NCBI GenBank assembly: GCA_964016885.1
Contig: OZ024745.1
Coordinates: forward strand, 33,232,001-33,296,000
Direction: 5' to 3'
Source of the DNA: Eledone cirrhosa
Lineage: Eukaryota
Length of the DNA stretch: 64,000 nucleotides
The translations under genes and the position numbers were made by a program. Under the pieces are notes generated by a model. The model was not told the origin of the DNA and made no database searches. It saw only the letters and a list, made by a program, of their open reading frames with translations. Positions 6,740 to 62,657 of the stretch are shown one piece after another. The first letter of the stretch is position 1, and each line of letters opens with the position of its first letter.

Positions 6740-9700
6740 CACTCCTACCACTACTACTGATACCTTTCAAGAAGGAAATTGGTAGCTTTTATTTCATCGT
6801 TCTTATTTTGTAGTTGTTGTTCAAGACTATGCTTTAGTTCTACAGCTTCTCTATATGGCTTCTGTAGACTCTCAATTTCTTTTTCAAGAACTGGGATTTC
6901 TTCTTCACTCAGTTTTGTCTCCATGTCTTCATCTAAATCAGACGTGATTTCAATATCCTGAAAGAATAGATTATCATCAAATTAATTTTAAAAGAAAGTT
7001 CATATATACGAGGAACAGCTGAAAAGTTCATAGGCTCCATGATACTCTCATGGAATGATCAAATGAGGTTATTTTTCAACAAAGTTTCTGGAAAGAAACA
7101 ATGCAGTTATTAATAAGAAGAGTTGAAATTAATGCATGCAAGATTTCACTGCTCTAGCATCACTCCTTCATAGTTAACCTATGAACTTTTCAGTCAACCC
7201 TCGTACACACATGTGGATTGGCAGTATCGGTAGAGAGTCTGACGCCATGCATTGTAGCAAAGAGTTACGGCCCTTTATGGTCTGAGTTCAAATCCCGCCG
7301 AGGTTAACTTTGCCTTTCATCCTTACGGGGTCGATAAAATAAAGTACCAGTAATATACTGGGGTAATTGCTGGCCTTGTGCCAAATGTAGAAATAATAAT
7401 TATCTATAATTAACCATAATTATCTTTCACTACCCTCCTCTCTTCCTCTCCTTAGGAGACTTGTCTCTTCTATATTTTATGTATTTTTGAAATGTCTCTG
7501 AAGAAATAAATGAAACATTTTTTTGATTTATGCTGAATAACTAATATCTGGATTTACTTTCGTACACTGAAATTTTACTTAACTGAGGATCTTTGGGTAA
7601 ACATGCATAAAACAAATAAAATTATTGTAAATTCTCTTTGAACTCTTGGATTTATTACACACACACAATTATATATTGGATGTGTAAAAGACAACAAAAA
7701 GCACCCAGCCCACACTGTAAAGTGGATGTGTAAAAGACAACAAAAAGCACCCAGCCCACACTGTAAAGTGGATGTGTAAAAGACAGCAAAAAGCACCCAG
7801 CCCACACTGTAAAGTGGATGTGTAAAAGACACAGCAAAAAAGCACCCAGCCCACACTGTAAAGTGGATGTGTAAAAGACAACAAAAAGCACCCAGCCCAC
7901 ACTGTAAAGTGGATGTGTAAAAGACAGCAAAAAGCACCCAGCCCACACTGTAAAGTGGATGTGTAAAAGACACAGCAAAAAGCACCCAGCCCACACTGTA
8001 AAGTGGATGTGTAAAAGACAACAAAAAGCACCCAGCCCACACTGTAAAGTGGATGTGTAAAAGACACAGCAAAAAGCACCCAGCCCACACTGTAAAGTGG
8101 ATGTGTAAAAGACACAGCAAAAAGCACCCAGCCCACACTGTAAAGTGGATGTGTAAAAGACAACAAAAAGCACCCAGCCCACACTGTAAAGTGGATGTGT
8201 AAAAGACACAGCAAAAAGCCCCCAGCCCACACTGTAAAGTGGATGTGTAAAAGACACAGCAAAAAGCACCCAGCCCACACTGTAAAGTGGATGTGTAAAA
8301 GACAACAAAAAGCACCCAGCCCACACTGTAAAGTGGATGTGTAAAAGACAGCAAAAAGCACCCAGCCCACACTGTAAAGTGGATGTGTAAAAGACACAGA
8401 AAAAAGCACCCAGCCCACACTGTAAAGTGGATGTGTAAAAGACAACAAAAAGCACCCAGCCCACACTGTAAAGTGGATGTGTAAAAGACACAGCAAAAAG
8501 CACCCAGCCCACACTGTAAAGTGGATGTGTAAAAGACACAGCAAAAAGCACCCAGCCCACACTGTAAAGTGGATGTGTAAAAGACAACAAAAAGCACCCA
8601 GCCCACACTGTAAAATGGATGTGTAAAAGACACAGCAAAAGCACCCAGCCCACACTGTAAAGTGGATGTGTAAAAGACACAGCAAAAAGCACCCAGCCCA
8701 CACTGTAAAGTGGATGTGTAAAAGACAACAAAAAGCACCCAGCCCACACTGTAAAGTGGATGTGTAAAAGACACAGCAAAAAGCACCCAGCCCACACTGT
8801 AAAGTGGATGTGTAAAAGACACAGCAAAAAGCACCCAGCCCACACTGTAAAGTGGATGTGTAAAAGACAGCAAAAAGCACCCACCCCACACTGTAAAGTG
8901 GATGTGTAAAAGACACAGCAAAAAGCACCCAGCCCACACTGTAAAGTGGATGTGTAAAAGACAGCAAAAAGCACCCACCCCACACTGTAAAGTGGATGTG
9001 TAAAAGACACAGCAAAAAGCACCCAGCCCACACTGTAAAGTGGATGTGTAAAAGACATGGCAAAAAGCACCCAGCCCACACTGTAAAGTGGATGTGTAAA
9101 AGACAGCAAAAAGCACCCACCCCACACTGTAAAGTGGATGTGTAAAAGACACAGCAAAAAGCACCCAGCCCACACTGTAAAGTGAATGTGTAAAAGACAC
9201 AGCAAAAAGCACCCTGCCCACACTGTAAAGTGGATGTGTAAAAGACACAGCAAAAAGCACCCAGCCCACACTGTAAAGTGGATGTGTAAAAGACATGGCA
9301 AAAAGCACCCAGCCCACACTGTAAAGTGGATGTGTAAAAGACAGCAAAAAGCACCCACCCCACACTGTAAAGTGGATGTGTAAAAGACACAGCAAAAAGC
9401 ACCCAGCCCACACTGTAAAGTGGATGTGTAAAAGACATGGCAAAAAGCACCCAGCCCACACTGTAAAGTGGATGTGTAAAAGACAGCAAAAAGCACCCAC
9501 CCCACACTGTAAAGTGGATGAGTAAAAGACATGGCAAAAAGCACCCAGCCCACACTGTAAAGTGGATGTGTAAAAGACACAGCAAAAAGCACCCAGCCCA
9601 TACTGTAAAGTGGATGTGTAAAACACAGCAAAAAGCACCCAGCCCACACTGTAAAGTGGATGAGTAAAAGACATGGCAAAAAGCACCCAGCCCACACTGT

Positions 9701-10580
9701 AAAGTGGATGTGTAAAAGACATGGCAAAAAGCACCCAGCACACATTGTCAATGTGGTTGGCGTTAGGAAAGGCATCCAGCTGTAGAAAACCTGCCAGAAA
9801 CACTCCTATACGGGCGAGACATGGTCACCCGGCCCAACCTGCCTCTAAATGGGATAAACCTATCCAACCTATGCGAGCATGAAAGATGGACATTAATCAA
9901 TGGTGATGATGATATATATATATATATATAAATTCAAGAGCAAATGACATATATAGGAATATATCAAACAATACACAGAAGATAATTTCTTAATGGCAAT
10001 AGAACTATGGTTCATCTTTGAATGGTGAAGTTCAAAATGGTGAGTCAGAATCATCAGCAAGAGAGAGCTTAATCCATACGAACTCACACATCTAAGCAAA
10101 TCTAAAGAATTTAAGGAATTTAAAAACATGTATTAGGGTTGATACAACTGACTAAACCTTTCAAGGCAGGGCTTCAGCATGGTCCCAGTCCAATGATGTA
10201 AGCCAGTAAAAAAATAAAATATTAGATTCAGCTGATACAACCCTTTCCTTGGGCTAAGTACATATATATATATTAGAAAGTGAGATTTTTTTACAAAATG
10301 AAAAATAACTGAGGTGTCCTACACGAGTGAAAGTCTAGAGAAAAAAAGATGAAATCGAAAATGCAACTGGAGTCTTATTTAAAAAAAAATATATATATTT
10401 ATTTGGTTCATCACAAATGTGAGAAAAACCACCAGACCCTCCATCTCAACTCTACTTTTGAAAAGCAGAAGAACTGTGAAACCAGTAAAGGAACCAAATA
10501 AATATATATATTTAAAAAAAATAAGACTCCAGTTGCATTTTCGATTTCATCTTTCTCCCCCCCCCCTCTCTCTCTCTCTC

Positions 10581-16600: not shown

Positions 16601-19600
16601 CATTAGCACTACCCCATTACATCACTAGTGCACTCATTGAACCCTTGGCTAAGCTGCAAATGGCACCACCTCTATTCCATTACAACACTAGGGCACTATA
16701 TGAATAATAAACAGAAAGTAATTTGACCTTTTCTTTAGATAGTTCAACACATTTCTGTTTGAAGAGGACTTGCTTCTTTGCTTTAGCCAAATCTTCTTCA
16801 ATTTGGTTTTCTTTCTTCTCCAGGTTTTCTGCCATTAATCTATGAAATTCTTCATCATAGGAATCATCATCATCTTGATGGTAAATTTGTTTGGGAAAAT
16901 AAAAAAGTCAAGTCAGTTATTTGTCAAAATTGATATCATGACCAAGTATTTTATTAAAGAATCAGTGACAGAAAGGAGGTTATGTAACATTCATGATTTC
17001 CTCAAAGTCATTAACAGTTTAAATGAGGCAAATTATCTTTAATCTTCCTCATACCAAACCACCTGAAACTGTCCCTGGTTCTATGATACACAACTTTGTT
17101 TTAAAATCTTCCATCATAATTTTATGCAAGTACTGTTGTTATGTTCCAAACATCAGCTTAATAATAAGAAACTTAGTTTCGTCCTTCCCTCTTTCATTCT
17201 TCTGTAGCCCTAGAGTCCTTGCTTTCCCCCCCCTTTCCTGTTTTTAAATATTTGTAATGTTTTTTAAAATTATTTTATAGTCATTCATTCATGTCACTCA
17301 TTTATTAAGTTATGTGTATTTCTTTGACAGCTAAAAATATTTGTTTGTCTACAAATGGTTAACAAGAGTAATTCTTGATTATTTAAAAAAATTATTTGAA
17401 AATGAAAGGCAGTATCTTTAATAGACATATGGTAACATAACAAAAGGGTTTACCTGTAAGTGACTCCAGGTAGCAACGTGGCACACACAAAGCTCCACAA
17501 TCATAAAGTTGTTTACATAGCAGTGATAATGTATTCTTAAATGTCACAGATAATACAGACACAGGCATAACTGTGCAGCTGAGAAGTTGGTTTTGTAACC
17601 ACATGGTTTTAGGTTCTATCCCTCTCTGTAGTACATTTGGTGAGTGTATTTACACTGGGCTGACCAATGTCTTGTGCCTGTCAGTGAATTTGGTCTGTAA
17701 AGAACTCCAGCTTTGTGTGTGTGTGGGGTGTATGTGTAAGGGGGTACCTGTGTGTGTGTAAAGGGGTACCTGTGTGTGTGGGGTGTGTGTGTATGGGGGT
17801 ACCTGTGTGTGGGGTGTATGTGTGTATGGGGGTACCTGTGTGTGTGTAAGGGGGGTATGTGTGTGGGGTGTGTGTGTAAGGAGGTACCTGTGTGTGGAGT
17901 GTATGTGTCTAAGGGGGTACCTGTGTGTGTAAAGGGGTACCCTTGTGTGTATGGGGTGTGTGTGTATGGGGGTATCCGTGTGTGGGGTGTGTGTGTAAGG
18001 GGGTACCCGTGTGTGGGGTGTGGTGTGTGTGTAAGGGGGTACCCGTGTGTGGGGTGTGTGTGTGTGTATGGAGGTACCTGTGTGGGGTGTGTTTGTGTGT
18101 GTATGGAGGTACCTGTGTGTGGGGTATGTGTGTGTAAAGGGGTACCCGTGTGTGGGGTGTATGTGTGTGTATGGGGGTACCCGTGTGTGGGGTGTGTGTG
18201 TAAGGGGGTACCGTGTGTGTGGTGTGTGTGTGTATGGGGGTACCTGTGTGTGTGGGATGTGTGTGTAAGGGGGTACCCGTGTGTGTGGGGGTGTGTGTGT
18301 AAGGGGGTACCTGTGTGTGTGTGCACACATATATCAGTTTACCACATGCAGTATAAACAATATGACCCCAGTTTTATAGCTTTAAATCTTTAGCATTCAC
18401 ATTACTCTATATATCATCATCATCATCCTCATTTTACGTCCGCTTTTCCCTGCTTGCAAGGGTGAGACGGGAACTGATTCTGGCTTGATTTCTACAGTTG
18501 GATGCCCTTCCTAACACCAACCTCATTTCTACAGCTGAGTAAACTGGAGCAATGTGAAATAAAGTGTCTTGCTCAAGGAAACAACACATCACCCAGTCTG
18601 AGAATTGAACTCACAACCTTTCGATTGCAAGGCCAATGCTCTAACCACTAAGCCATGTGCCTCCATATACTATTATATTTTCATGGTAAAGGCTTTACCT
18701 CACATAATATCGAATCTATGAGATTTTGAAAGTATTTATTTTGAGAACAATACCTTAACATCAGTATGAGTGACCAGTTACAGCCAGTTTCAACAGAAAG
18801 AGGTAGAGAATTCTGGCCGGTTTTGGCCAGTTTGAACATTAAAGGGTTAAAATAATTATAAATGTAGAACAGTAACTCTGAATAAAAAAAAACCTATAAC
18901 AGCATAGAAAGCAAATGTTAAATGATGATGTAAAAAAGACCAAATCATATTACCCTTTGTTAAGAGTTCCTTATTGTTTGTTTGGTCAAGAAAGTTGGTA
19001 AATTGATGGCTGTCAAGAATAGCTTTGATTTCTAAGTTCTGTCCCATTTGTGTCTTCAGGATTTCCACTTGTGTTGCTTTGTATATGATTTCTTCAAGAT
19101 ATTCCTCAGATTTCATCTTAGCAGTATTGTATTCTGCTGTTTTGGATTTCACATCTTTAGTCATACATTGCAGTCTTTCTCTGGTGTCTTTCAACATCAC
19201 GAGTGCTTTACTAGTTCATAATAGAAGAGGAAGTAGAGAGATTATATGATGTGGACAGCAGACAATGACTGGAACATCTTTGATCATAGGTCTGCTCAAT
19301 GAAGACTGACCAGAGACCAACAATAGCAATGGCAACAACAATAGCAACATTTATCTAAATTTGATTAAACTTACTTAATTTTCTCCATTTTCTCTTTTCG
19401 TTCATTACTTTTCAAGCCAATGAGATATTGAAAGCAGTGAAATAGCTGTTCATAAGTCTTTGTTGATATGAAACTTCTTTGGTTATTTGAGGGAGAAAAT
19501 GTTTGTTGACGTTTCAACCTAAACACAGACAAACAGTGGTTTTTATATAACCTCATTTCAAATAATCTATCTCAAACTTAACCAAATAGAAAGCAACCAC

Positions 19601-22600
19601 CACCACCACCACCACCACTGCTGCTGCCCTATGTTTATATTTAGTAAACATACATATGTCTCACTGTTGGTATTTTTCTATGATAAACATTAAATAACCA
19701 AATAGTTATAAAACAGAATTATGAAAAAAAGAGATACATTACCTAATATGGTCGAGAAGTAGACTTTGAGTATATGGTAAATTACAGACAGCTTGGTTAA
19801 ATACTTTCACTGGATCTGTGTTGCAATCTGAATATTCTACCTGAACAATTTCAATATTTGAGGCAAGGTTTCCAGTCCAAGGGGCTTTGTTGTATTCTTC
19901 AAACATAAATCTATGAATATTCATCAGGCATTTAACAATTCTGCTCCTGAAATGAAATTATTATGAGTATTGTGTATTTTCAATGGTTTCACATGAGTTT
20001 TTCATGACACTATTAAGTAGTACAAATGTTTGTGTATTATTTGTTTTCTGCTTTGATATGGAAGTGTCTTAATATTTCCTAACAGATGTAGTTATCTATC
20101 TGCTCATACCTAAGGACATATTCAGCATTTGTGCAGTTTGATGAACCAAAGCCAGAAATCAAAGACTTAGTTAATATTAGCTTAACTTTTCAAGACTATA
20201 TTTTTAATTTACCAATATTATATTACCTTAAATTATTATCATGGAATATTCCAGATTCATTTAAATAACAAGTCGTCATAGAAATGAGGGTGTTTTCTGA
20301 CCATTCGAGCAACCAATTTACCTGGCAACCTTTCAAGATTCCTGGATATTCTCTGGGAAAGAACAATGGGTTAAATGAATGTTAAGGTATAATTAAAATA
20401 TAGTGAGAGTGTAAAAACATAACAAATGTAGTTATATAGACATGTAGGATTAGGAGTAATCTATATCATAAGAAAAGCTGTTTCTTCATCTGTCTGTCTG
20501 TCACATATATATGTAGGAGTGAAAAGGGGAAGGGACCTCTTTTTTTTAAGTTGAGCGAAGGGAGATTCAGTTAATTTTGAGAATAATCAAATATTTGGAG
20601 TGATTAAGTAATGTAACTAACTTTCTCATTAAGTTGGTGTTTCGAACATAACTTAAGAAATGGTTCTTACAAAAAAACAATATTGGGAGGTTTGAAATTA
20701 AATATGGGGATTTTAAAACATAGTTTTTTTGTAAGAGAACTGTAGGCAATTTCAGGTAGGTTAGTATCAAAAGCGTTAATGTTAATGGTTATCTTTATTG
20801 GATGCAAATAATTTACCTATATAAATTAGACAGTAAAGGGTTTGAAGGAGTTAAATGAATGAGAATATGAAGGTTTTTTTTCACATTATCACAGAAATAA
20901 GCTGCCGGTTTAGTTGTTCTCTCCAAGTGGTCTTTCTTCAACTGCAGTTCCAGTGACTAAAATAAACAAAAGTCAACAATAATAGAAATACAAAGGCAGA
21001 AAAACAAAACAAAACAGATGAGTGAAGATGTTTGTAAAATAAATATATTTAACAATTAGAATGTTATATTTGTCACATAAAGCAGTTAGGGTTGCTGAAG
21101 AGTAATACAGAAACTACATAATGAGACAGCTGCAGCTGGATGGTGTCCATTGCCCCTATACCTGTGATTGGTACAGACTGGTTATTATTATGCTGGGAGG
21201 GTCAGGGTTTGGATTTGAAGGACAAGATTGATTTGTACTTTAAGTCTTGTGAGGTATATGTCTGGTGAGGGGGATTAAATGTAGATTTATGGATTGAATT
21301 TGCTTGAGTTTGTGGATAGCATTGGTTCAGCATAGATTTGTTTGCATTTAAGTTAAGGCAATTGACAATTATGATGAGGATGACTATCAATTGCCATAAC
21401 TTGGGTGCAAACAAACCAATGCTATCCACAAACTGAAGCTAATAAAATAGATTTACATTAGAGGTGAATTACATGATGGTATTGATATTTCTACTGAACA
21501 ATTTTTGTTGTTTCTTTGCCATAACTGGATGTGATATCAATTCTTTGATTACCTTATTTCAAATCAAAGACACTGTGTATAATTTTCAACATAATTATAC
21601 TTGTCCTTGTTTGCCTCACAAGTTCCAATCTTATTTCACATTAGAGTTGTTAGTGACTGCAAGGGAATCACCATCAATCCTGTATAATGTCTATTTTCCA
21701 TGCTTGCATAGGTTAGATGGGTTGTTACATTATGAGGCTAGATAGGTCAGGTGACCAGTCTTGCCTTTTCTGACACCAACCATTTTACAGCATCACCTTA
21801 TATGTACTGGATACTTTTTGTTGTGACTCCAGAACTATCACCTTATAGTATATACTGGGGGCATTGTTCGTGGCAAGATAAGATTAGTCCCTCCAAGACC
21901 CCAACCCCACATTCCCATTTTAGAACATGAAAAACAAGAAAATATATTTGCTAGAAGTTTCTATAAAAACCAACCTGGAACAGTGTAGAAAGTTCTTCTG
22001 TGGAGTAAAGTGTTGTGTAATCTTCAATAACGAGGAAATTGTTAATACAATCCAAATGCAGGGGATTTAATAAATTGTTCTCCTGTGGGATAGAAAAACG
22101 AAGCAAATTCATAGAATAGAGAGAATCCCCATCAAACTCATGCAAGCATGGAAAATAGACATTAAACAGTAATGATGATGATGATGATAGAATGGAGACA
22201 AAGTTTTATTTTCCAACTGACTGGTTTGAACCAATAAATGAGTACTCAATATAATTAATGCATAAAAAATGGTCAGGAGGACCCTTCAGTCATATCAAGG
22301 ACATGACAGCCTCCATAGTGTTGATGATCTCTTACTCATCATCATCATCAATTAACGTCTATCTTCCACACTAGCATGGGTTAGACGGGTCCCATTTAGA
22401 GGCAAGTTGGGTTGGATGACCGTGTCTCACTCATATAGGGTGTTTCTGGCTGAGGAGTCCACTTATTTACAACTCTGTATACTAGGTCATCTTGGCACAT
22501 ATTTTGATTAAATACACTCTACTGCCAATGAAGATATAATATATGCAGGAATAGGCACACTGAATCTCTGTTTCATAAGAGGTGACTAAAAGGGTTGATG

Positions 22601-24168
22601 TTAAGAAGAGCATTTGGCTGTAAAACATTGTCTAAAAAAATCCAGTCCAATCCATGCCAACATGGAAAAGTGGGTGTAAAAACGATAATGCTACTGCTGC
22701 TGACGATGATGAATCAGCATCACTAATAACAACAAGGTAAGTGTAGAATTTTTTTTTTCATAATTTGAAATAAACTTACTTTAAGGATCAATGCAACAGG
22801 ATTGTTCAAACTGCCAGCTTGTTTCACTGCCGTCTTCAGAACTTCAGACAGATCATTACCAGTAAACCATTCTATCTCTATAATTGTGGTGTTGGTCATT
22901 TCACATGTTAACATGTAGATGCTAACAATGTCACTGACAACACTACTGATTGTGAGAAGGTGACTCCTGTATAAATGACACAATATAAGACATATAGTAC
23001 AACTCATCATGGTAGTGATAAATACTCATTGTATATATATATATATGTGTGTGTGTGTATATATCATCATCATCAAACGTCTATCTTCCACGCTATGTAC
23101 ACACACACACACACATGCTTACGCACGTGCACAAGTATAGCTTTTTTTACAAAATGTTTTTTTTTTCCATTTCAGGTAGATGCACTCCATCATTCACTTT
23201 TCTAAAAAATAAATCATACACAAAACGCCAGCACCAACAGTTTTGCAAGAGATGTCAACATGAATGGACCTGTTATTTTTATCTAAAGACATTTTTTCCA
23301 ATTCCAACCCGCCCATCCCCTTAATCTATCTTATTTCTCATTCTTTCTTCGGATGAAGGACTAGCATCCGAAACGTTAAGACCCTCTTCCTGCTATATCA
23401 AGCATTAACCTAATATATCCGTTCCATATACTGTACAGATTGTGCTGTTATTTCAGTTTACCTTTTACATACATATATATATATACATTTTAAAAATTAG
23501 GATTGGTGCTCTGAAATAGCGATGTATACATGAATGTATGTATAGTATATTTGGCAATATACCGTATGTTTAATTCAAAACATTTTGAAGACCTTGCGCT
23601 ATCATTTTTAAAGTAGTGACTATGTCACTTCTTTTTTCAGCAAAGGAAGGGAGAGAAGCTGACAGATTCTGTTTCACACTGTTGGTGTTTCTCAAAGCAA
23701 CGTACTCCCCACCTCTGCGGAAAATTATAGAGGCTGGATTCTTATAGAATTCCAGTAATAAGCAGGAACTGATTATACAGAGCGATTGCCGGTCCTGCAA
23801 ATATTAAAAATTAGGAATGGTATATTGCCAAATATACTATACAGACATTCATGTATACATCGCTATTTCAGAGCACCAATCCTAATTTTTTATTTTTGCT
23901 GGATGGGCAATCGCTCTGTAGAATCAGTTCCTGCTTATTACTGGAATTCTATAAGAATCCAGCCTCTATAATTTTCCGCAGAGGTGGGGAGTACGTTGCT
24001 CTGAGGAACACCAACAGTGTGAAACAGAATCTGTCAGCTTCTCTCCTTTCCTTTGCTGAAAAAAGAAGTAAGTGACATAGTCACTACTTTAAAATGATAG
24101 CGGAAGGTCTTCAAAATGTTTTTAATTAAACATACCGTATATTGCCAAATATACTATACATACATTCA

Positions 24169-24205
<37 letters not shown>

Positions 24206-24579
24206 ATATATGTGTGTATATATATATGTATATATACCATGACCTCTGGCGTCACGCACTAATACAGAAGACTCGACCCCCCCATGAAGCATATAGACAA
24301 TATGCCGCCACACCCTCCCACTGCAAAGTGGTTGTGGAGGTACCAGCCAACACTGTAAAGTGGATGTATAGGTGTCATGGAAAAAAGCACCCAGTATTCA
24401 CTGTAAATGAGGTTGGTGTTAGGAAGGGCACCTAGCTGTAGAAATCAAGTCAGAATCAGTTCCCATATGAGTAAGGCATGGTCAGCCGACCGGACACTGC
24501 CCACAACAGGACAACTCGTCTAACCCATGCTAGCGTAGAAGAACGTATGATGTAAAACGTTGATGATGATGATATGTAT

Positions 24580-24610
<31 letters not shown>

Positions 24611-25656
24611 ACGTTTAACGTCCGTGTTCCACGCTTGCATGGGTTTGGACGGGGGTAGTCCCACTTGAGGCAAGAGTGATTGTCTTGCTCGCATAGGACT
24701 GTCTGGCAGGTTTTCTACAGTTGGATGCCCTTCCTAACACCAACCACATTTACAGTGTGGGTCTGGGAGGTTTTTACCGTGTTGCCTACATGGCCACATT
24801 ACAGCGTGGACTGTGTTTTTTTGTCGTGACACCTACACGATCTCATTTGTTTCGGCCTGGATGGCGCGGCACCAACATAACTTTACATAGAACGGGGTGG
24901 TATGGATGGGGTGGGGGTGGTGGTGGTGGGACGGGGTGTATTTTGTATATATATATGTATATATATGTATATATATATGTATATATATATACATATATAT
25001 ATACGTATATATATATATACATATATATATATACGTATATATATATATATATATCCAGTCCTAAATAAATGAGGTCGTGTAGGTGTCACAACAAAAAAAC
25101 CACACAGTCCACGCTGTAATGTGGCCGTGTAGGTAACACGGTAAAAACCTCCCAGTCCACACTATAAACGTGGTTGGTGTTAGGAAGGGCATCAAACCGT
25201 AGAAAACCCGCCAGACAGTCCTATACGAGTAAGACAACCAATCTTGCCTCAAGTGGGAAAATTCCCGTCTAAACCCATGCTAGCGTGGAAGATGGACGTT
25301 AAACGATGATGATGATGATGATGATACGTATATATATATATATATATATATTGTGAGTTCGATTCCTGGACCAGGCGATGCGTTATGTCCTTGAGCAAGA
25401 CACTTTATTTCACGTTGCTCCTTCTACCTGGAGTTGCGACCGATAGATAGTATTAGCAATTGGAAAGACCAACGGAAACATTGTTCCCTCGGTCCGATTT
25501 GACGAAAGTCGATCGTTCCTTTTTATATATATATATATGTATATATATACATAGTTACAATTTCAAGGAAATCGGTCTGATGTAACACCTCAAAAAACCC
25601 CTAAAAAGCTGAAAAAAACGCAGTTTTTCACCTATATATATGTATATATATATACG

Positions 25657-27121: not shown

Positions 27122-30100
27122 GTATATATATATATATACATATATACGTATATATATACATATATATATAGGTGAAAAACTGCGTTTTTTCAGCTATTTA
27201 GGGGTTTTTTGAGGTGTTACATCAGACCGATTTCCTTGAAATTCTAACTATGTATTAGTCAGTCTCTTCTTCATACCGTGAGGAAAGAAAATCCAACATT
27301 TTCATGGCCCGCATTAGGTGAACAACTTCATTTTTTCAGCTTTTTAGGGCGTTTTTGAGGCGTTACGTCTAAATCGCAATCAGAGTTATTTCCCTTGGAA
27401 TATATTGTATTATTAGAAGTCTAATCTCCTTATAATATATAACCAGCAATTTCTCTGTTTGTCTGTCTGTCCGACAGTAGAAGCGCGTGCGAATGTTTTT
27501 TGCACACGCGTAGAGAGAGAGTGAGAGTGAAAGAAAGAGACAGACTACGAGAGGGGGATAGCGGGAGGGAGAGAGGGAGAAAGAGGGAGAGTGAATAGAC
27601 GCTAAAACACGTGCGCGCGTGCGAATGTTTTTGGCGCACGCGTAGAGAGAGAGTGAGAGTGAAAGAAAGAGACAGACTACAAGAGGGGGATAGCGGGAGG
27701 GAGAGAGAGGGGAATTGAGGAGTGCTACAGAAACATATATACATTTCTGTGTCATCATCATCATCATCATCAACGTTTAACGTCCGTGTTCCACGCTTGC
27801 ATGGGTTTGGACGGGGGTAGTCCCACTTGAGGCAAGAGTGATTGTCTTGCTCGCATAGGACTGTCTGGCAGGTTTTCTACAGTTGGATGCCCTTCCTAAC
27901 ACCAACCACATTTACAGTGTGGGTCTGGGAGGTTTTTACCGTGTTGCCTACACGGCCACATTACAGCGTGGACTGTGTGTTTTTTTGTCGTGACACCTAC
28001 ACGATCTCATTTGTTTCGGCCTGGATGGCGCGGCACCAACATAACTTTACATAGAACGGGGTGGTGTGGATGGGGTGGGGGTGGTGGCGGGACGGGGTGT
28101 ATTTTGTTAGAGATGCCTACTGGCAAGGCGGGTCTTCTCTGTTACTGAGTACCGCCAAAGGTCACGGTCCAGTGACATTGTCTTGGAGAGGTGTAAGTGT
28201 GTGAGGTCGGAGTTTATCAGCTCATCCCATGTTTTTCTAGGTCTGCCTATTCCGTGGCTACCGTCTATCTTTATTGCCCTGCACTTTGTAATACAGCTAT
28301 CGACTTTCATGCGCATCACGTGTCCATACCAACGCAGCCTTCTCTCGAGTAAACAACATCTGATCCCTCTTATCTCTAATTTTTTCCTTAGTTCGTTTAT
28401 GCTTTGCCGTTCACGTATATTACTGTTACACATCCAGCGGAGCATGCAAGCTTCGTTCCTCTCTAGTCTGCGTATATCCTCTGCACACAATGCCCAGGTC
28501 TCACTACCATGCAACATTGCTGTTCGTATGCAGGCATCGTACAACCTGCCTTTCATTTTTAGGGAGAACCCTTTAGCAGCTAATAGTGGTATAAGCTCTC
28601 TGAACTTTTTCCAACCAGTTCTGACTCTAGCTACAGTACTTTCAGAGCACCCTCCCCCACTGCTGATTTTATCGCCCAGGTAACGGAAGCTGTCCACTAT
28701 TTCTATAGAACCCTCTGCGCAATTGAAAGAGCTAGTATTTTGTGGGCACTTGCTGCTACTTATTGCACCAGAACACCGGCCACATGTAAAGTCTATGTTC
28801 TTAGTTAGCTTACCTGTGATCCCACTACATCTTTTATGCACCCATACTTTGCATTTAGGACATAAGATGGAGTTTCTACCTACGCCTTTCCTACATACCG
28901 AGCACGACCATTTCCCAGAAGGGACCGCCGCCTTGTTTTCTTTCCTACAAACTAGAACTTTGGTCTTAGCCAGGTTAATTTTAAGTCCTTTTGACTCTAG
29001 GCCGTGCTTCCATGTTTGGAATTTCTTCTCTAGCTCGGCCATTGATTCCGCTATGAGTGTCAGGTCGTCTGCGTATAGGAGTTCCCGTGGGCAGCCTGTC
29101 TTGAACTCCTCTGTTATAGCCTGAAGGGCAATAATAAATAGTAGGGGGCTGAGAACAGAGCCCTGATGGACGCCAACTTTTACGCTAAACTCTTCACTAT
29201 ATTCGTTGTTAATTCTAACCTTGCTGACTATTTCTTTATACATGGCTTGTATAGCCCTCACAAGCTATTCGTCAACGCCTAGTTTTCTAAGAGCCCACCA
29301 GATAATGGAGCGGGGGACTCTGTCGAAGGCTTTCTCCAGGTCGACAAAAGCTAAGTAGAGGGGTTTACCTTTAGCTAGGTACTTCTCCTGTAGTTGTCGT
29401 ACTATGAAAAGAGCGTCTGTGGTGCTTTTGCCTGACACAAACCCGAACTGCATTTCATCTAGATCAATTCTCTCTCTGATTAGTTGCGCTATTACTTTTT
29501 CCGTGACCTTCATGACCTGGTCGATTAATTTAATGCCTCTATAGTTACTCCTATCTAGGGCGTCTCCTTTACCCTTATAACAGTTAACGATGATGCTGCT
29601 ATGCCAGTCCTTCGGAACAACCCCATCCTGTACGACTTGGTTAACTATGCGGGTGACCATGGTGTGTCCCACCGTGCCAGATGCCTTCAGCATCTCAGCA
29701 ACTATTTCCGAAGGCCCAGCCGCCTTACCAGTCTTCATATCCTTGATTGCCTTACTTATTATACTCCCCTCGACTAACACTGCTGGTCCCTCTATCGGGT
29801 CGATATGGGGGAGACTGTCTTTCTCCCATTTATTCTCCTCATTTAGTAGCCTTTCATAGTAACACTTCCAAGCTACCTTCTTATCAGTGTCGGTGAGGGC
29901 AAGTATGCCATCATCGTTAAGTACACACTTCTCCCCGACAATATCACGGTTTTCCTTGACGTGTGTGTAATATATATATATATACACACACAGAAATATA
30001 TATACATTTCTGTGTGTGTAATATATATATATACTAGCAGAAAACCACACGGTAGGCGGTTTTCTGCTAGTCTATATATATAAAACTGAGGATGTCTGTC

Positions 30101-30810: not shown

Positions 30811-33800
30811 ATATATGTATATATATATAATTCAAATAAAAAAAAATCTATGTATATATCCATATAGCATTAGAGAAACACATAGTATTTTGTACACATA
30901 TAAAAGGCATATAATATTTAGGAAACAGTAGATACTTTAAAGTGGAAAAGTTATCTTCCTTATGGTTGCCATTTCATAGTTCATAGAACCAGAGTGAAAA
31001 TCGATCTAAGCAATCAATCATCAATTACTATTGATTTTGATATAAAAACATATGAAACAGCTGCCATAAGGAAGATAATAACTTTTCCACCTTAAAGTAA
31101 TAATTAATTGATTAAATGTATGTATTTCTATTTAATCTTATATATTTGTCAAATGATAATAAACTTGTGTACTCTTAATATTATATAATCATTTCTACTC
31201 TAGGCACAAGGCCAGCAATTTGGGGAAGGGCAAAGTCAATTTAATTGACTTCAGTGCATTACTGGTACTTCATTTTATCGACCCCGTAACGATGAAAGGC
31301 AAAGCTAACCTCGGTAGCATTCAAGCTCAAAATGCCAAGGGCCATAACTCTGTGCCGCAAAGCATGTCCAAAGCTCTATGGATTCTGCCAATCCACCGCC
31401 TTCATAAATATTATATAATAAAAACAGTTTAATGAATAAAAGTCTGAAATATGTTTAAAAAGAAAAATGAAAAATAGCTACAAATATAAAAAAAAATATA
31501 TATATAAACAATGTAAAATGAGAGATTTTATATCATAAAATCATGGGTGATCTCAGGCAGATCGGTATTGAATGGGTTAAAACATGTTGCCACAGGGTTC
31601 CAGTTCAATTTTTACACAAAGCCAACTACTTGAAAGGATTAATCCTTTTTTGTTCTTTTGTCACTGCAGATGTTTTACATACATTTTTTTAAACAATTGA
31701 AGATCGGCTGAACTAAATATAATTGTTTTACTATTGGCACAAGGCCAGCAATTATCCCAGTACATTATTGGTACTTTATTTTATCGACCCCGTAAGGATG
31801 AAAAGCAAAGTTAACCTCGGCAGGATTTGAACTCAGACCATGAAGGGACGTAACTCTTTGCTGCAAAGCATGGCATCTGACCCTCTACCGATACTGCCAA
31901 TCCTCCGCCCTTCTGCCATTAATATATTTTTCTTTTTATATATATATAATTTAAATGGCTGAACTAAATATAATATTTACCTGTCATGACATGTAAGGAG
32001 TCGGTGGACCTTAGTAATCTGAGATATCACATGTTCAGAAGGAATTATTTCAAGGGGTTTCATTGGATGATCTGAATTATACATATCAATATGTCTTTGA
32101 ATGGTAGCTTCTAGTGGTAACAGACTTTCTGTTTGATATAAAACATTCTGAAGGAAACAAAATAACATAATAATAATATTATATTAAAAAAATAAATAAA
32201 TAAATAATAATAATTATTATTATCATTGCTGGACAGTATTAGTAAAGCTGTGCAGCATGTAGTTACATTCTGAGTTGAAATCCTGCTTAGGCTAGACAGA
32301 AAATTTATTAATAGCTGCTCAAGGTCAAACACTAAACACAAACTCGATAAGGAATATGTATAACCCAGAGGAAGCAAATAAGTGTAGGTTATGTGGGAAG
32401 AAGGTAGAAAGTGTGACACATATTGTGAGTGCCTGTGTTATGATTGCACAGAGGGAATATAAAAGGTGTTGCAATAAAGTGTGTTTACATCTCTATTGGT
32501 CTTTATGCAAGAAATATGGGTTTGTAACCACTGAGAAATGGTATCAGCACAAACTGAAGAAGGTCCTAGAAAATCAGACTCTTGTGGGACTTTACAATCC
32601 AATAAGATAGAGTTCTTGAAAATACATGGCCAGACATAACTTTGGTGGAGAAATGTAATGTAAGTGGGTGTTTGTTGATTGATATAGTTTGCTCAAGAGA
32701 TCATTACATCAGTAGTAAAGAAAACAAGAAAATTGTAAAGTATGCTGATTTGTGGAGAGAATGTGGAATATGAAAGCAAGAATAGTACCAATTGTTAGTG
32801 GAGCACTTGGGTCGGTGAGAGAGGACCTCCAGAAAAAAAAAACCTTGATAGAATTGGAATCAGACCCAGCATTACAACATTGTAGAAACAATATATTTGG
32901 GAAATATTCTGCAGAAAATATCCTGCAGAAAGTACTGTCTATCTGAAGTTACATAACTTTATAAGGAGTCAAATGATCCAGTGTTAATAAGATCATCACT
33001 GTGCAAATATGAATAATAATATCAATGAGATTCTTACATATGTATGTTTACTGAGTAAGGTAGAATGTGAAGATGGTCTATTTCTTGAAGGAATTGTGAT
33101 AAAATACCTAACATCTGGGGTTACCACCACACCAGGCCATTTCTATAAAAGAGAAAAGAATTTAAGAAAAATAAAGCATTTATAATTAAAAAGAAAGAAG
33201 CAATTTCTTGCAGGGGCATCAAACCCAGATATGTAAACGAGAGAATAATGTAGGATTGTATGGTATTCATGCCTTTATAGATTAATGTAAGTAAAATGGT
33301 TACAACTGTCTGATATCATTAAGATAACTCTGAAATAACTAAGTGTAAACTAGTGTATTAAGTACAAAACAGTGTAAGACAGTGTACTAAAGACAAGATA
33401 GTGTAAAAATATTACTAACTACTAGGCAATGTAAGGCAGTGTATTAAGTATAAGTGAAACGACAGATTCCTGGCTTGTCTGGGAGGTCTGTAGCCACTGC
33501 TTCAGTACTAACTTAGTCTATGCAGATCCATTCAACCCTTGCTAGCAGGGAAAGCGGACATTAAAACGATGATGATGATGATAATATAACACAGTGTACT
33601 TAATGCTAGATAGTGTAAGGTAGTGTACTAAATACAAAATGTACTACATACAAGGAAATGTACTAAATGCAAAATTATGTAAGATAATTTAGTAAGTACA
33701 AGACAGTAAACAATGTACAAAGTACAAGACAGATAAGTATTGCATCATATACACCGGTCTTTATTGCCACCACTGTCGCCACCACCATCACCACTACCAC

Positions 33801-41200: not shown

Positions 41201-44200
41201 ATGAAATTGAAATGTATGTTTATTTTTGTTGTAGCACAAAGTAATGTTTGTTAATTTGTATGGTTGAAGTTAAACATAAAAAGGTTACAAAAGGAATGTG
41301 CCATTGTGTCAGGCCCAAAGCAGGCCGGCAGGCCAAAGTGCAAATCTCACCGTTACACATTGTACGTGTCGTTCCTTCGGAGTTCAAGCAGCAAGAGACA
41401 GATTCTTCAAATCCTTGCGGGGAATTTCTCCCTCAGGGCGCGTAGGAATACATTCTCTTCTGCTGGCACCGATTGGCTGAACTGAGCCAAATCACGCATA
41501 GAGAATGTATGTGAGCCCGCAGAATGTAGGTCACTACAGTATTTATTCAAGAACAGATACAGATTAAAGAGTATATTAATTGATTATAATGCTAATTTTG
41601 TTACCTTATAGTCAACAAAACACAAAATAGACTGACATCTTATCCCAGGGTGAAGTATCTTTCAATAGTTTATTTTCAGTTGGAAAAGAATTGACTACAG
41701 AGTTGTGAGACAGATGAAAATTAAGTCGAGAAAGTTACAGTGTAACAAAGGTAAATTTTAATGTATTTATATTATTATTATTCAAATATAGTTTGAGTGG
41801 GGAAATTGACAGCAGAATTGGTAGAGCACCAGACCTAATGGGGTTAACATATTTTCATCCTTTTGAAGTCAATAAAATACAAGGTGGCATATTGGCAGAG
41901 CAGTTAGAACATTGGATAGAATACTTTGTGGTATTCATTCTGGCTGTCATTGCTGAGTTCAAATCCCATTGAGGTCAACTTTACCTTTCATTGTTCCAAG
42001 GTCGATGAATAAATACCTGTCCAGTGTTAAGGATGTTGGACTTACGATCATACTGTCATGGGTTTGATTCCTGGACTGGGTTTTGTGTTGTGTTCTCAAG
42101 TAAAACACTTCATTTGATATTGCTCAAGTATACTCAGCTGAAAATGAATATCAGCAACAGCTGGGAGTTTAACCTTGCGATGGGCTGCGGCCTGTTCAAG
42201 TGGGAGTCTTGCTACTCTCAGTTGTTTAATTCCATGGAAACTGGGATAAACACCTGTCTGATGAGCCTCTTGGCTTGAAACAGACTTTAGACATTTTTTT
42301 TCTATATCTTTTTCTTATTTCTTCTTCTTCATTCTCTCTTTTTCTCAGGAAGAAATCAGCTGTGTTCAGACATGGAGAGGGGATGGGCTCTGCCATGTTT
42401 AAAATGCCCAAGACACACTGTATGTCATTACAGAGCCCCTATGACTTCTCCAGGAATTATGTTACAATACATACAAAATACAATACTAGGTCAAGTACTT
42501 TGATTGTTCCTATCACATGATGCCTAACAGCTGATTCTTTGGTTATCAATCTGTTGTCCTATCAACATTGCCATCTATGATCCTCAGCAATAATCTAGGA
42601 ATAACAATAATAAACCAGAAACTTACCTAAAGTTGACATGAAGGCATTTATTAATGAGGTCTTTCCAGACCCTCTGGGACCACTTAACAGGAAATGGAAA
42701 CCATTCTGTGTGAAATTATTTATGAAGTATTTTATAGGGATCTGAAAATAAAATATTTAATAGGATCCTTAAATATAAATTTTCAATTGGAAACAAAAAA
42801 TAAAATACTAACTCTTAATGTCCTGTACTACATGAAACTGCATTAGCAAAATATTCTTGAAAAGTACAAAATAGTACTATGATTGTAATATGTTAAACAG
42901 TCTTTACTTTAACACTGTAAACTTCTACAATGACCTATCCACTAATAAAGACACTAGAAACATTTGAATTAAGTAACCCTACTTTAAAACATTTTCTATG
43001 AAACCATTAGAAGATGCTAAGAGTTAAGCAGAGTTCTCAAAGTACAAAATTAAATAGGGAGTAAAAAATACAATATTAACCTTTCTAAGGAATAACACTA
43101 TTTTGAAAATATTTTGAATAATCAAATAATTTTGAAAATAATCAAGGATTTAGAAAGATTTAGAAATATAAACTAACTTTCTTATTAAGCTGGTGTTTGG
43201 AACATAACTTACTTAAGGTTTTTATATAAAATTAAGATGAAAGGTTTTTAGAAAAATATAAATACTTGAAAATAAACAGGGGCAGTATCAAATACTTTGG
43301 TAGCAAGAGGATTAAATAGAGACCAAAAAGTACAATAACATATATATATATATAGTGTAGGTGAATCGTTCTTTGTTATATATATATAATTAAGAATGGT
43401 TTCTTGAAGCGAATCAGGAAGAAACTACAGTTAAATAAGGTACTCATTGCATTAGTAGAGAAGATAAATAATTATTTCATATAGAAATGACTTCTACAGG
43501 ACTATAACTGTTTCATTTGTTTGAAATCATCAGGAATATTCCTAATGATTTCAAACGAACAACAGTTCTAGTCTTGTAGAAGTCATTTCTATATGAAATA
43601 ATTATTTATCTTCTCTACTAATGCAATGAGTATCTTATTTAACTGTGGTTTCTTCCTGATTCGCTTCAAAAAACCATTCTTATATATATATATATATATA
43701 TGACGATGATGATGATGAGGACAACTTACTGTTCTTAGTGTGTATACATATTCTCTGTTGAAGTTATCTTGTATAACCGGAGACTCTTCAAGTGATCTAG
43801 AAAAATTAATCGTCTTGAATTTATCAAATGCATTGTGAAGTTCAGAGTGGAAGGATGAAAGGCAAAGTCAACATGGGTGGGATTTGAACTCAGAACATGA
43901 TTTATTTAGTCCAATGCTCTACCAATTCTCATCAATCACTCATCAATATTTATCCCTTTAGCGTTTACATTACTCTATATTTACTATTATATTTTCACAG
44001 TAAAAGCTTTACCTCACACAATTATCTCACATAATATCAAATCTATGAGATTTTGATATTATTTATTTTGAGAACAATACCTTAACATTAGTATGAGCAG
44101 TTGGTTGCAGCCGGTTTGAACAGAAAAGAGAATTCTGGCCAGATATGGCTGGTTTAAATGCTAATGGATTATATCTTAATATCATCCTCATCATATCATT

Positions 44201-54327: not shown

Positions 54328-54931
54328 TATACATAATGGAGTGGTCTGGTAGGGTTTTCCTACTGAATTGATGAAAGGTTAGTGGAGCCCATATGAAGAT
54401 AAACTTGTTAAGAGGTTCTTTCATCATTTGAATTTATAGACTTAGTGGATGCCAACCAAGGGCAACAAAATTGCTTTTAGTATAAATATAAAGTAAAGTA
54501 GACATGAGATTCTTGCCTTTGTCAGTTGCTGTCGATACCTGGCTTTCTGGACGAACTGTATCAGGTTTCTCTCCAGATTTGTCTTCTAGGGCTTTTCTAA
54601 TCTGATGAGCTCGTCTAATGGTGGCTATCATTGATGACAGACTAAACTTGGGTATCTGACATTCTGACTTGCTATGAAAAGATAAGTGAAGACTTGGCTT
54701 TTAAATAACTATGGATAAATTATTATGAAATACTATAAGCAAACAATTGTCAACATGACTAACAATATACAAAGCTCAATTTTCAGTTTTTAAGTACTGA
54801 GAATATATATACAGTGAAACCTCAGAGTGAAATCTTGTTTTGTTCTTTTTAATATATAGACTCTGCTATAGCATAAAGTGCTAATATTAGTAACTTCCAC
54901 AGTAAACTACAAATTTGCTGAATCCCCTAAT

Positions 54932-54968
<37 letters not shown>

Positions 54969-57900
54969 AATGAACCAATTCCGTCAGAAAAGTCCAGGAA
55001 AAAAGAGTGCTCTATGTAGGTAACAGAGCTTAATAGTTATGTAATAAACAACATAAGGCAATTATTTCATTTACCAGTGGTTTCTTAAAAGCAAAAAAAA
55101 ATTGCTTTCAATCATCAGAATGAAAAAATCCTGGAGTATTTATTGATGTTGGATTTTAAAAACAAAAATGCAATCTATATCGTATGTATATAGATATAGA
55201 TTGCATTTTTGTTTTTAAAATCCAACGTCAATAAATACTCCAGGATTTTTTCATTCTGATGATTGAAAGCAACATTTTTTTGCTTTTAAGAAACCACTGG
55301 TAAATGAAATAATTGCCTTATGTTGTTTATTACATAACTATATATATATATATATGCAGAAATCCCAGCAATTACCCTCTATTGGGTAAATGCTAGTACA
55401 AAAATATCATTTATTAATGTGTGGTACAATCTAAACTGGGATATATAAATATGAGGGTTCCACTTCGAATATTTAATTTAAAAAAATGGTATGTGCACAC
55501 CCACACATTTAAAACCCCCAGTTTAGCTAGGTCTAAAGCCTTGGCAAAAACAATCTGGGATCTGAAACGTGCTAATATTGAATACACAGTACAATGGTCC
55601 GTCCATACCGGAATGAAAGCTGCCCCTGTGAACTATGTTTGGCGGAGGTAATTGAAATAGTGACCGGAAAGGACCTAAATTCCCAGCATGATAGGATATT
55701 TAATTGCAAACATAAGATTCTAAAAATCTTCGCTAAATACAAACTGGACTAGAACAAGATTCAATCCCTAATGCCCAGGTTTTACTATATCCTATTTGGT
55801 ACATTTCCTGTGGAATTTGAACTTTTCACACCCAATGGATTCAGTAATATTCAAAGCAATCCCATTTTCTTAATTCCTTTCCTCCTTACCCACTCTAGCC
55901 TACTCTTAACCTCTGCCTTATCTTTCTCTGTCCCTCTCCTTATACCTTCTCTACTCCCATATATGGTAAACATCAAAACCTTCACCTATAACAATGGTCA
56001 AAGAATAATTATTCCACATCACAGCCCACAGATTGATAGTGTGAAACTCTTTACTCCCACTCCCTCTCATCTCTACTATCACACTAACTGACTCTATCTC
56101 ATTCTATTTTTAACATATTTACATATTCTTAAACGAAAATCTCATCACTGAATTATACCCCGTAGTGAATAGGTTTTCTGAAGAAGTGTAATAAATAATT
56201 AAGTATTTCATATGATTGAACAATATATATTGTAGTCAGCATAAGTAGACAATTTATAATAGACACAGAATCATATGTCAAAGCAAATAAACCCATAATC
56301 TCTTCATGTCAACATTTTATTTTTCTTGGTGCAATACTTGCTTATATATATATATTGTATTGTTATTTACTTACAGTTGAAGTTCAGCTAAAGAGACAAT
56401 CTCTAATAATCTTCCTGCCAGAATATTTCCACACTTGAAACCAGCAGCAATAAAATATCCCCTTAAAATACAGTAAATATCTGGTTTAAGGAGAGACACT
56501 GTTCGAAATACTGATTTAATCTTCCGAGCAAATTGCCAGTTTGATTTGCCAGTTTGATTCAATGGTGCAGTCATAAAGAAGAAAGTTCTTGGATTCACTT
56601 CAAATGTCTACAGGAAAATCAGTAAATGGGAGAATGTAAAACCTGAGAAATGTAATAAATATTTTCTCCTTACATTTTATTAACTTGTACAACATTTGGG
56701 AAATGAAAGGGTAAAATATTATACCTACTACATGGTCAATACATTAACCCTTTCATTACTATATTTCTAATGAAAATATACTGTTTCAAGGAATTAATAA
56801 AGAATTTTGAATGATTTACTAAAACCATTAATTATTTCATTCTTAAGATAGTTTTATGTAAGAACAATTTGTTACAAATACTATGCTAGAAGATTTTAAT
56901 TTAACTCTTTCATTACTATATTTCTAAAAAGATACACTGTCTAGCCTCAGCCACTACCAACACCATCTCCATTACCAATCCATTAAATAAGTTTCTAGTG
57001 ATACAGGCTGTACTAAACATAGTATACAAACAGTATATCTTAAGGGACTCTGCTTCATGGTGCTGGCTGACGGGATGGAGAAGACATTGTCCCGGAGGAT
57101 GGCAAGGGAGATGTACTGGAACAGCCACTCCACCTCGTGTGGCTTGGAATTGCAGGCAGCCAATTCCACTCTGATAGCTGTGAGCAGGGATATGGTCTAG
57201 GGGCCAAGAATGCCTGAAGTCTCCACTGCCACAGGCTCAACCATGAACCTATAAGAGAGAAGCCGATACTTGGACAATTTACCTTCTTAGGCCTGGTCGG
57301 CAGTGAAGCCTGAGCTGGATGAGGAGCCAACTCTCGCGAAACAAGAAGATTGTCATGTTGTCTGGCATGCAGTCCAGCTTCACTATCTTAAGCTGGGAAG
57401 AGAAGCCTGCCTATGTATTTTAATTAATTTTGAAAATCATCAAGAATTTGGAGGGATTTAGTTAAAACAGATTCTGTCATTATTAAATTAGTATTTGTAA
57501 CATAACAAAGGCTCTTAAAAAAATATAAGCAATTTAAAAAAAAAAATCATAGAACCAGGGTCAGTTTTAGTAGGTTGGTATCAAAAGGGTTAAGTACCAG
57601 TTAATGTATTGGAGTTGATATAATTGACTAAAAATCTGAGAAGGTGGTAGCCCAGGATGACCACAGATGAATGACTAATAAAAGAAAAAAAAAAAAAAAA
57701 TCAAAGAAAAGAAAATATATGTCATCATCATCATCACCATTTAATGTCTATTTTTTTCCACATTTGCATAGTTGAAACCACATAAGCTTCTTACCTATAG
57801 TGATATATATTTTATGTATAAAAACAAACTAGCAGGAGACTCAGGAATAAATCTCACGCAAGATGGTTGGATATCATCCATGAGCTTGGCTGGTCTCGCT

Positions 57901-62621: not shown

Positions 62622-62657
62622 TCTTCTGATGAAGGACTAGAATCCGAAACGTTAAGA
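62622..62657 (+). ncRNA. minimal hammerhead ribozyme (PLE type); mutated copy at 23346-23381
   Basis: tctt-CTGATGA-a-gga(ctagaa)tcc-GAAACGTT-aaga; loopless palindromic helix III. Confidence 0.65.

What the first reader, a model, noticed from the sequence alone, without database searches (positions are those of the whole stretch)
55033..55341. ~310-bp palindrome presenting the same intact hammerhead on both strands
Seen: arms 55033-55181 and 55193-55341 are near-perfect inverted copies, each with a full CUGAUGA/GAAA/GUA core, 7-bp helix I and 10-bp helix II. The minus copy lies in the dynein pre-mRNA about 400 nt upstream of exon 7. Inference: its antisense arm is transcribed first, so a long hairpin should sequester the ribozyme. 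That would protect the host intron and create a dsRNA substrate for ADAR or Dicer. The U-A pair at 10.1-11.1 is less usual than G-C.
Basis: partly seen in the sequence, partly recalled or inferred. Interest (0 to 1): 0.78.

Follow-up and report, generated by a model that had tools for sequence, protein, structure and literature searches.

The report
Back-to-back Penelope retroelement ends in intron
This mirror-image sequence in a dynein intron is real and belongs to a repeat family with thousands of estimated copies; it is likely two back-to-back ends of a Penelope-type jumping gene, a known layout whose ribozymes are predicted to stay silent, so it is ordinary.

Summary
The palindrome is real: 149-nt arms, three mismatches, one type I hammerhead per arm, inside a 1,703-nt dynein intron. 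The arm is a high-copy repeat (roughly thousands of copies). The minus copy runs about 64 nt further (a one-sided tail to 54969), and both ends abut (AT)n. Helix III is only 3 bp with a self-complementary sequence, the dimer type. Reads from other animals show the family continuing 5' of the centre and other head-to-head joints at many truncation points. This is the published layout of Penelope-like element (PLE) insertions: inverted 5'-truncated ends, tail, (TA)n target, hammerhead. No reverse transcriptase was linked to this family; a same-type hammerhead lies 30 nt behind a PLE-like endonuclease frame in another organism. Folding supports sequestration by the hairpin, but as a by-product of insertion, not a protective device; the lone arm is predicted to be mostly misfolded anyway. 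Cleavage, editing and small RNAs were not testable. Two more such palindromes lie in this window, and the scan found the same layout before in other genomes. Ordinary.

The parts
54932..54968 (.). (AC)n(AT)n microsatellite, left part of the inferred target site
   Evidence: sequence; family reads end in (AT)n at 54977/54979
54969..55032 (-). About 64-nt one-sided 3' tail of the minus copy; part of the repeat family, absent from the plus copy
   Evidence: summed contig depth 1.3e5-5.3e5 over 54980-55035 against 7.6 for a unique flank contig; one contig of organism B spans 54981-55052 with 1 mismatch
55033..55181 (-). Left arm: 5'-truncated copy, sense to the dynein pre-mRNA
   Evidence: family continues beyond 55180 in 469 and 391 reads of X7 and X8
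55065..55125 (-). Type I hammerhead, predicted cut after 55072 (GUA); helix III 55073-55081
55182..55192 (.). 11-nt AT-rich spacer at the head-to-head joint; not family sequence after its first base
   Evidence: loose ends at 55180 and 55194 differ from it
55193..55341 (+). Right arm: 5'-truncated copy without tail, antisense to the pre-mRNA
   Evidence: the family often ends at the mirror position 55033 in (AT)n: 248 reads in X6, 233 in X7
55249..55309 (+). Type I hammerhead, predicted cut after 55302 (GUA)
55342..55356 (.). (AT)n microsatellite, right part of the inferred target site; hides any target-site duplication
   Evidence: sequence
54672..56374 (-). Host intron (GT..AG, 1,703 nt) of a dynein heavy chain gene, AAA1 region
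   Evidence: Pfam AAA_6 on the upstream exon, dynein match E 0.0015, in-frame exon join

Best explanation
The palindrome is two 5'-truncated, head-to-head copies of a high-copy hammerhead-bearing repeat lying between (AT)n runs in a dynein intron, likely the ends (pseudo-LTRs) of a Penelope-like retroelement laid down in one insertion. Shown: repeat status, truncation at the centre, the one-sided tail, two recurrent 3' ends about 64 nt apart, and other head-to-head joints in the family. Fold-back copying of the first cDNA is the main alternative. The hammerhead is inherited cargo, kept by selection on the mobile family, and likely works as a dimer or with the element's protein. In the pre-mRNA it is predicted to be zipped into the 149-bp hairpin and silent; this is a by-product, with no host function needed.
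For: Depth over the element reaches 1e5-1e6 against 7.6 in flanks; 3871 of 12.8 M and 3590 of 12.6 M raw reads lie on 221 bp, roughly 1,000-5,000 copies for assumed genome sizes of 1-5 Gb. The family continues 5' of the centre, and ends in (AT)n at 55033 and near 54970. 12 of 16 listed centre joints in other copies are within 10 nt of symmetric; 5 opposite-strand joints are seen on the single arm, 4 of 5 within 8 nt, in contigs of X2 and raw reads of X7 and X8. Both arms share a letter that 96% of family depth lacks (55135/55239), which points to one template. 0 of 31 variable positions fall in the 19 core and helix III positions (P 0.037), and 6 fall in the 8 loop II/N7 positions (P 0.0002). 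A tandem dimer is 5.1 kcal/mol more stable than two monomers. The layout matches PMC3846280, PMC8557442, PMC4209133; cleavage and extension of both strands and two RT starts are reported in PMC11167929. In L074 a hammerhead with the same helix III type and GUA site lies 30 nt after a frame whose relatives are RT/GIY-YIG-like proteins.
Against: No coding frame was linked to this family: no genome was held, and the family-specific pattern found 0 metagenome matches. L074 shares no DNA similarity with the family outside the motif, its helix II is imperfect, and Pfam named neither its frame nor 9 of 9 relatives as RT or GIY-YIG. The tail is longer than the published 30-40 bp. The G10.1-C11.1 pair typical of PLE hammerheads is absent. 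No target-site duplication can be read. 19 of 59 variant rows were hidden, and loop II is a slippage-prone U run. The exact spacer of this locus was not recovered in listed reads.
Confidence: 0.82

Rival explanations
1. A self-contained non-autonomous palindromic element (MITE-like or retrozyme-like) that moves as a 310-bp unit.
For: Near-perfect terminal symmetry and high copy number. Some joints recur in several samples (55128-55134 in X2, X7, X8), so a few palindromes may be shared loci or have been re-amplified.
Against: Centres vary across at least 16 listed joints, the family continues 5' of the centre in hundreds of reads, and the tail is one-sided. There is no head-to-tail tandem as in non-LTR retrozymes; only one copy of the family is in the window.
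Confidence: 0.08
2. A host-selected device: the isolated arm cleaves well, and the antisense arm is kept to switch it off or to feed ADAR or Dicer.
For: The core is intact in both arms; the bare 61-nt core has the three-way junction as its lowest-energy fold, with helix III paired about 50% of the time. Sequestration is predicted.
Against: Arm age explains the intactness: 3 differences in 149 nt, all apparently new in the left arm. Two older palindromes in the window have decayed cores in one arm. The active fold is under 1% in the arm context. Related ribozymes are weak alone (PMC4209133, PMC11167929).
Confidence: 0.06
3. Assembly or library fold-back artefact at this locus.
For: No listed read or contig spans the exact spacer or the (AT)n junctions; one X3 contig has 9 nt fewer at 55182.
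Against: The arms differ at three places where the right arm has letters known from the family. Unique flanks are present with 0 mismatches at single-copy depth. The tail is one-sided, head-to-head joints occur in raw reads of other animals, and two diverged palindromes of the same build lie nearby.
Confidence: 0.04

Closest known systems
Endonuclease-positive Penelope-like element insertions with inverted pLTR and tail (Adineta vaga Pen2a, PMC3846280; Fig. 2 legend of PMC8557442)
   Same: Head-to-head inverted 5'-truncated copies, a tail on one end only, (TA)n target bias that hides duplications, hammerhead near the 3' end.
   Different: No ORF in this insertion and none linked to the family here; tail about 64 nt rather than 30-40; no readable target-site duplication.
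Metazoan PLE hammerheads with small palindromic helix III (Cervera and De la Pena 2014, PMC4209133)
   Same: Type I topology, long helix II, short palindromic helix III suited to a dimer. The paper already reports dual motifs about 100-700 bp apart on opposite strands.
   Different: Helix II is 10 bp and helix I 7 bp (paper, Schistosoma min-HHRs: 7-8 and 4-5); U10.1-A11.1 instead of G-C; not matched by Rfam models.
PAc (Poseidon of Anolis carolinensis), PMC11167929
   Same: Two recurrent 3' ends that define a tail; AT-rich target; hammerhead upstream of the ends.
   Different: In PAc the ORF starts inside the hammerhead; no open frame is visible in this arm or tail. PAc was assayed; this one was not.
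Non-LTR retrozymes (PMC7229834, search listing only; 10.64898/2026.07.22.740005, part 1)
   Same: Non-coding, type I hammerhead, proposed PLE derivatives.
   Different: Retrozymes are head-to-tail tandems; this is a single head-to-head pair.

Membership tests
Type I hammerhead ribozyme | CUGANGA, GAAA and UH core in canonical order with helices I, II, III | tested here: met
   helix III is only 3 bp and +0.4 kcal/mol alone
Type I hammerhead ribozyme | Match to a curated Rfam hammerhead model | tested here: not met
   no hammerhead family among 1 match at gathering score or 46 matches at E up to 10
Type I hammerhead ribozyme | Core conserved while loops vary across copies | tested here: met
   0 of 31 variable positions in 19 core/helix III positions; N7 and loop II vary; 3 of 4 helix changes keep pairing; 40 of 59 rows seen
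Type I hammerhead ribozyme | Self-cleavage after GUA | not testable with these tools
   needs in vitro transcription
EN+ Penelope-like element insertion | Inverted, 5'-truncated head-to-head copies with variable truncation | tested here: met
EN+ Penelope-like element insertion | Tail on one end only | tested here: met
   54969-55032, about 64 nt, longer than the published 30-40 bp
EN+ Penelope-like element insertion | AT-rich or (TA)n target | tested here: met
   both ends here, and loose ends of the family
EN+ Penelope-like element insertion | RT plus GIY-YIG ORF in the family | tested here: inconclusive
   none in the arm or tail; no genome held; indirect support only from L074
EN+ Penelope-like element insertion | Target-site duplication | tested here: inconclusive
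   hidden by (AT)n on both sides; no empty allele among listed joints
PLE minimal hammerhead (PMC4209133) | Palindromic helix III and long helix II | tested here: met
   ACCACUGGU forms an 8-bp self-duplex at -8.2 kcal/mol
PLE minimal hammerhead (PMC4209133) | G10.1-C11.1 pair after an extra nucleotide | tested here: not met
   U-A here; the U is C in 15-25% of family depth in X2, X7, X8
Non-LTR retrozyme | Head-to-tail tandem units each with a hammerhead | tested here: not met
   one inverted pair, no tandem copy in the window
MITE (definition recalled) | Fixed length and fixed, symmetric termini | tested here: not met
   variable centres, one-sided tail, 5' continuation
Conserved intronic hammerheads of amniotes (recalled) | Single-copy motif conserved at an orthologous intron | tested here: not met
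   high-copy repeat; the orthologous site in other species was not examined

The most novel reading that the evidence does not exclude
This family's hammerhead, with a 3-bp helix III and 10-bp helix II, cuts as a monomer. Head-to-head insertion then disarms it co-transcriptionally, so palindromic copies are tolerated in introns while solo sense copies are purged, and the thousands of hairpins form a major ADAR hyper-editing substrate class. Together with the shared-template signature and the two 3' ends, the family would also be a genome-scale record that separates two-sided priming from fold-back copying in PLE insertion.
Probability: 0.1. Interest if true: 0.5.

Novelty: new member of a known kind. 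Interest (0 to 1): 0.2.

Why it matters
As a single locus it matters little: it is one of many such stumps, with three in this window alone. Its value is as data on an open question, how PLEs build inverted ends and tails and what their hammerhead is for. A family with thousands of copies, two defined 3' ends and near-symmetric joints allows a census that could separate two-sided priming from fold-back copying, and could test whether orientation in introns is under selection.

Tried and rejected
No whole genome was held, so no genome-wide census. Rfam: no hammerhead match; the miRNA matches lie far below their gathering scores and reflect the hairpin only. No RNA holder was listed among 8 runs; this says nothing on expression. 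Family-specific pattern in metagenomes: 0 matches. Viral contigs: 4 matches; none passed the helix filter, and L001 was read and looks like chance. Homologue search with a dynein exon: 0 of 466 candidates. P0012 had no meaningful match among solved structures. Weak blastn hits at 12142, 38020 and 46479 looked like chance on reading. A>G excess in laid reads was not taken as editing: the runs are DNA or of unknown kind and pool many copies. Look-up of earlier findings by sequence gave one unrelated note. Paper searches listed no description of this family; 'Octopus + Penelope + hammerhead' gave 5 papers, 4 listed, none on it. Subscription papers and Repbase/Dfam were not searched. Supplements were not read.

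Full report
Observation. The palindrome is as described: arms 55033-55181 and 55193-55341, 149 nt, 98% complementary, 11 nt apart, with three mismatches outside all helices. Each arm holds a type I hammerhead in canonical order. My scan found these two in 64 kb and none in 30 of 30 shuffles. Rfam has no hammerhead match. The host is a minus-strand dynein heavy chain gene. The intron is 54672-56374, the flanking exons join in frame, and the sense cut site (55072) is 400 nt from the 3' splice site. The exon number could not be checked. The organism is an animal; its repeats recall an octopus, but that is from memory and no call tested it.

First, helix III is A-U, C-G, C-G with a 3-nt loop, and its sequence ACCACUGGU is nearly self-complementary. 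Alone it is unstable (+0.4 kcal/mol); two copies pair at -8.2, and a tandem dimer beats two monomers by 5.1 kcal/mol. Second, the arm is a high-copy repeat. Summed contig depth reaches 1e5-1e6 against 7.6 for unique flank contigs; the tool warns that this is no copy number. Raw reads give 303 and 284 per million, about 1,000-5,000 copies for assumed genome sizes of 1-5 Gb (reduced-representation data, rough). Third, the element is not symmetric: the minus copy runs about 64 nt further, to about 54969, and this tail is family sequence. Both ends abut (AT)n.

Family anatomy from reads. X1-X3 are one sample and may be the source of the window; X6-X8 are other animals of one study; X5 is a second organism. 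The family continues 5' of the centre (469 and 391 reads), so both arms are 5'-truncated at the same point. It ends in (AT)n at two places, 55033 (248 and 233 reads) and near 54970. Other copies have head-to-head joints elsewhere: 16 distinct centre joints were visible (15 of 36 joint rows and 12 of 32 rows of table 5c shown), 12 of them within 10 nt of symmetric; several cluster at 55128-55137 and may be few loci. On the single arm, 5 of 6 joint rows were opposite-strand, 4 of the 5 within 8 nt. Both arms share a letter that 96% of family depth lacks (55135/55239), so they likely come from one template; the three arm differences look new in the left arm, one being a CpG change. Among 31 variable positions (40 of 59 rows shown), none is in the 19 core and helix III positions (P 0.037), six are in loop II or N7 (P 0.0002), and three of four helix changes keep pairing. 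The exception is U10.1, which is C in 15-25% of depth in X2, X7 and X8; a one-base deletion in the helix I U run also occurs at few starts. The hammerhead thus looks selected in the mobile family, which says nothing on selection at this locus.

Link to PLEs. PMC3846280 (passages) describes inverted pLTRs, most often head to head, with palindromic joints read as self-priming, and a tail on one end. PMC8557442 (passages) describes inverted 5'-truncated copies, a 30-40 bp one-sided tail, hammerheads in pLTRs and (TA)n target bias. PMC4209133 (parts 1-2 of 4) describes PLE hammerheads with long helix II and palindromic helix III, dual motifs 100-700 bp apart on opposite strands, no cleavage by a single S. 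mansoni motif and low cleavage by dimers. PMC11167929 (parts 1-2 of 4) shows a PLE protein cutting and extending both strands of AT-rich DNA, two RT starts that define the tail, and a hammerhead that cuts only with the protein and is not needed for insertion in vitro. I could not reach a coding frame of this family. Indirectly, in L074 a hammerhead with the same helix III type and GUA site begins 30 nt after the stop of a frame with 34 relatives among 104 candidates. These carry RT-like and GIY-YIG-like motifs by my recalled reading, and Atlas neighbours of P0012 at 0.96-0.99 carry HTH_animal, GIY-YIG and RVT_1. Pfam itself named none of them so, and L074 is not DNA-similar to the family.

Mechanism. 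Most likely one insertion: nicks on both strands of (AT)n each primed copying of the element RNA, one from the tail start and one from the proximal start, and the two products were joined head to head. The shorter arm ends exactly at the family's second preferred end, which this model predicts. Fold-back copying, as proposed in PMC3846280, explains the symmetry and shared letters equally well but needs a cut at that same site. I put these at about 55:45. Both are inferred.

In the pre-mRNA the antisense arm comes first, and equilibrium folding of growing transcripts pairs 95-98% of hammerhead bases with their mirror from 55100 onward; the active fold is negligible in the hairpin. Sequestration is therefore predicted. 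Protection as a purpose is not supported. The active fold is 0.13 of the ensemble for the bare core, 0.022 with short flanks and 0.009 in the arm. Only one sense copy exists per strand, so no cis dimer is possible. Splicing survived intron cleavage by a slow hammerhead in work cited by PMC2995048 (passages). Against my reading, the bare core does have the junction as its best fold, so monomer cleavage is not excluded. Editing is plausible for any such duplex; 10.1101/2020.01.19.911685 (passages) reports high editing in octopus, and PMC3846280 reports small RNAs from PLEs. No RNA evidence was available here.

Generality and artefact. The window holds two more head-to-head palindromes between (AT)n runs with hammerhead-like cores decayed in one arm: 43377-43696, and about 23490-24177, the latter with a one-sided tail. 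A minimal hammerhead lies at 62626. The scan holds 43 notes in at least 13 genomes under these words (unchecked AI notes). An artefact is unlikely, but the exact spacer and the (AT)n junctions were not bridged by listed reads.

Verdict. A real, fairly young, dead-end insertion of a known kind. Interest 0.2. Other papers seen: PMC6962438 (passages; 235 hammerhead 1 matches in giant squid), 10.64898/2026.07.22.740005 (part 1 of 5), PMC7229834 (search listing only). No supplements were read; those of PMC8557442 and PMC4209133 may hold the parent family.

Noticed in passing
window 43377-43696: Second head-to-head palindrome (92.5%) between (AT)n runs; CUGAUGA core at -43533 cut off just upstream by the centre, right-arm core decayed; no tail; a different family.
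   Followed up: partly
window 23490-24177: Third palindrome (90%) with a hammerhead-like motif at +24001 (CUGAGGA, palindromic helix III, GUC), core mutated in the left arm, a one-sided tail of about 45 nt, and an extra inverted 3' end at 23819-23890.
   Followed up: partly
window 62626-62653 and about 23349-23376: Minimal hammerhead with almost no helix III (GAAACGUU) in a dispersed repeat; the second copy has a mutated core.
   Followed up: partly
loose end at 55086 (X3) and loose end at 55084 (X4): Subfamilies share helix III and the 3' part but carry a different helix II sequence; by eye the X3 one still pairs.
   Followed up: no
window 28110-30071 (-): Reverse transcriptase in two frames followed by a PHD finger, a LINE-like insertion in the dynein gene.
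   Followed up: no
window 18594-18657 (-): tRNA-like match at 29.9 bits, probably a SINE head.
   Followed up: no
window 7578-9824 (-): Long low-complexity open frames (716-749 aa) without Pfam match in a strongly skewed region.
   Followed up: no
window 21298-21443, 24344-24813, 30933-31099: Older, about 70% identical palindromes; no hammerhead core found by the scans.
   Followed up: no
L011:32-74, L021:973-1015, L111:285-339: Type I hammerheads with the same ACCACUGGU helix III in unrelated metagenome contigs; L111 is 57% GC and was not characterised.
   Followed up: partly
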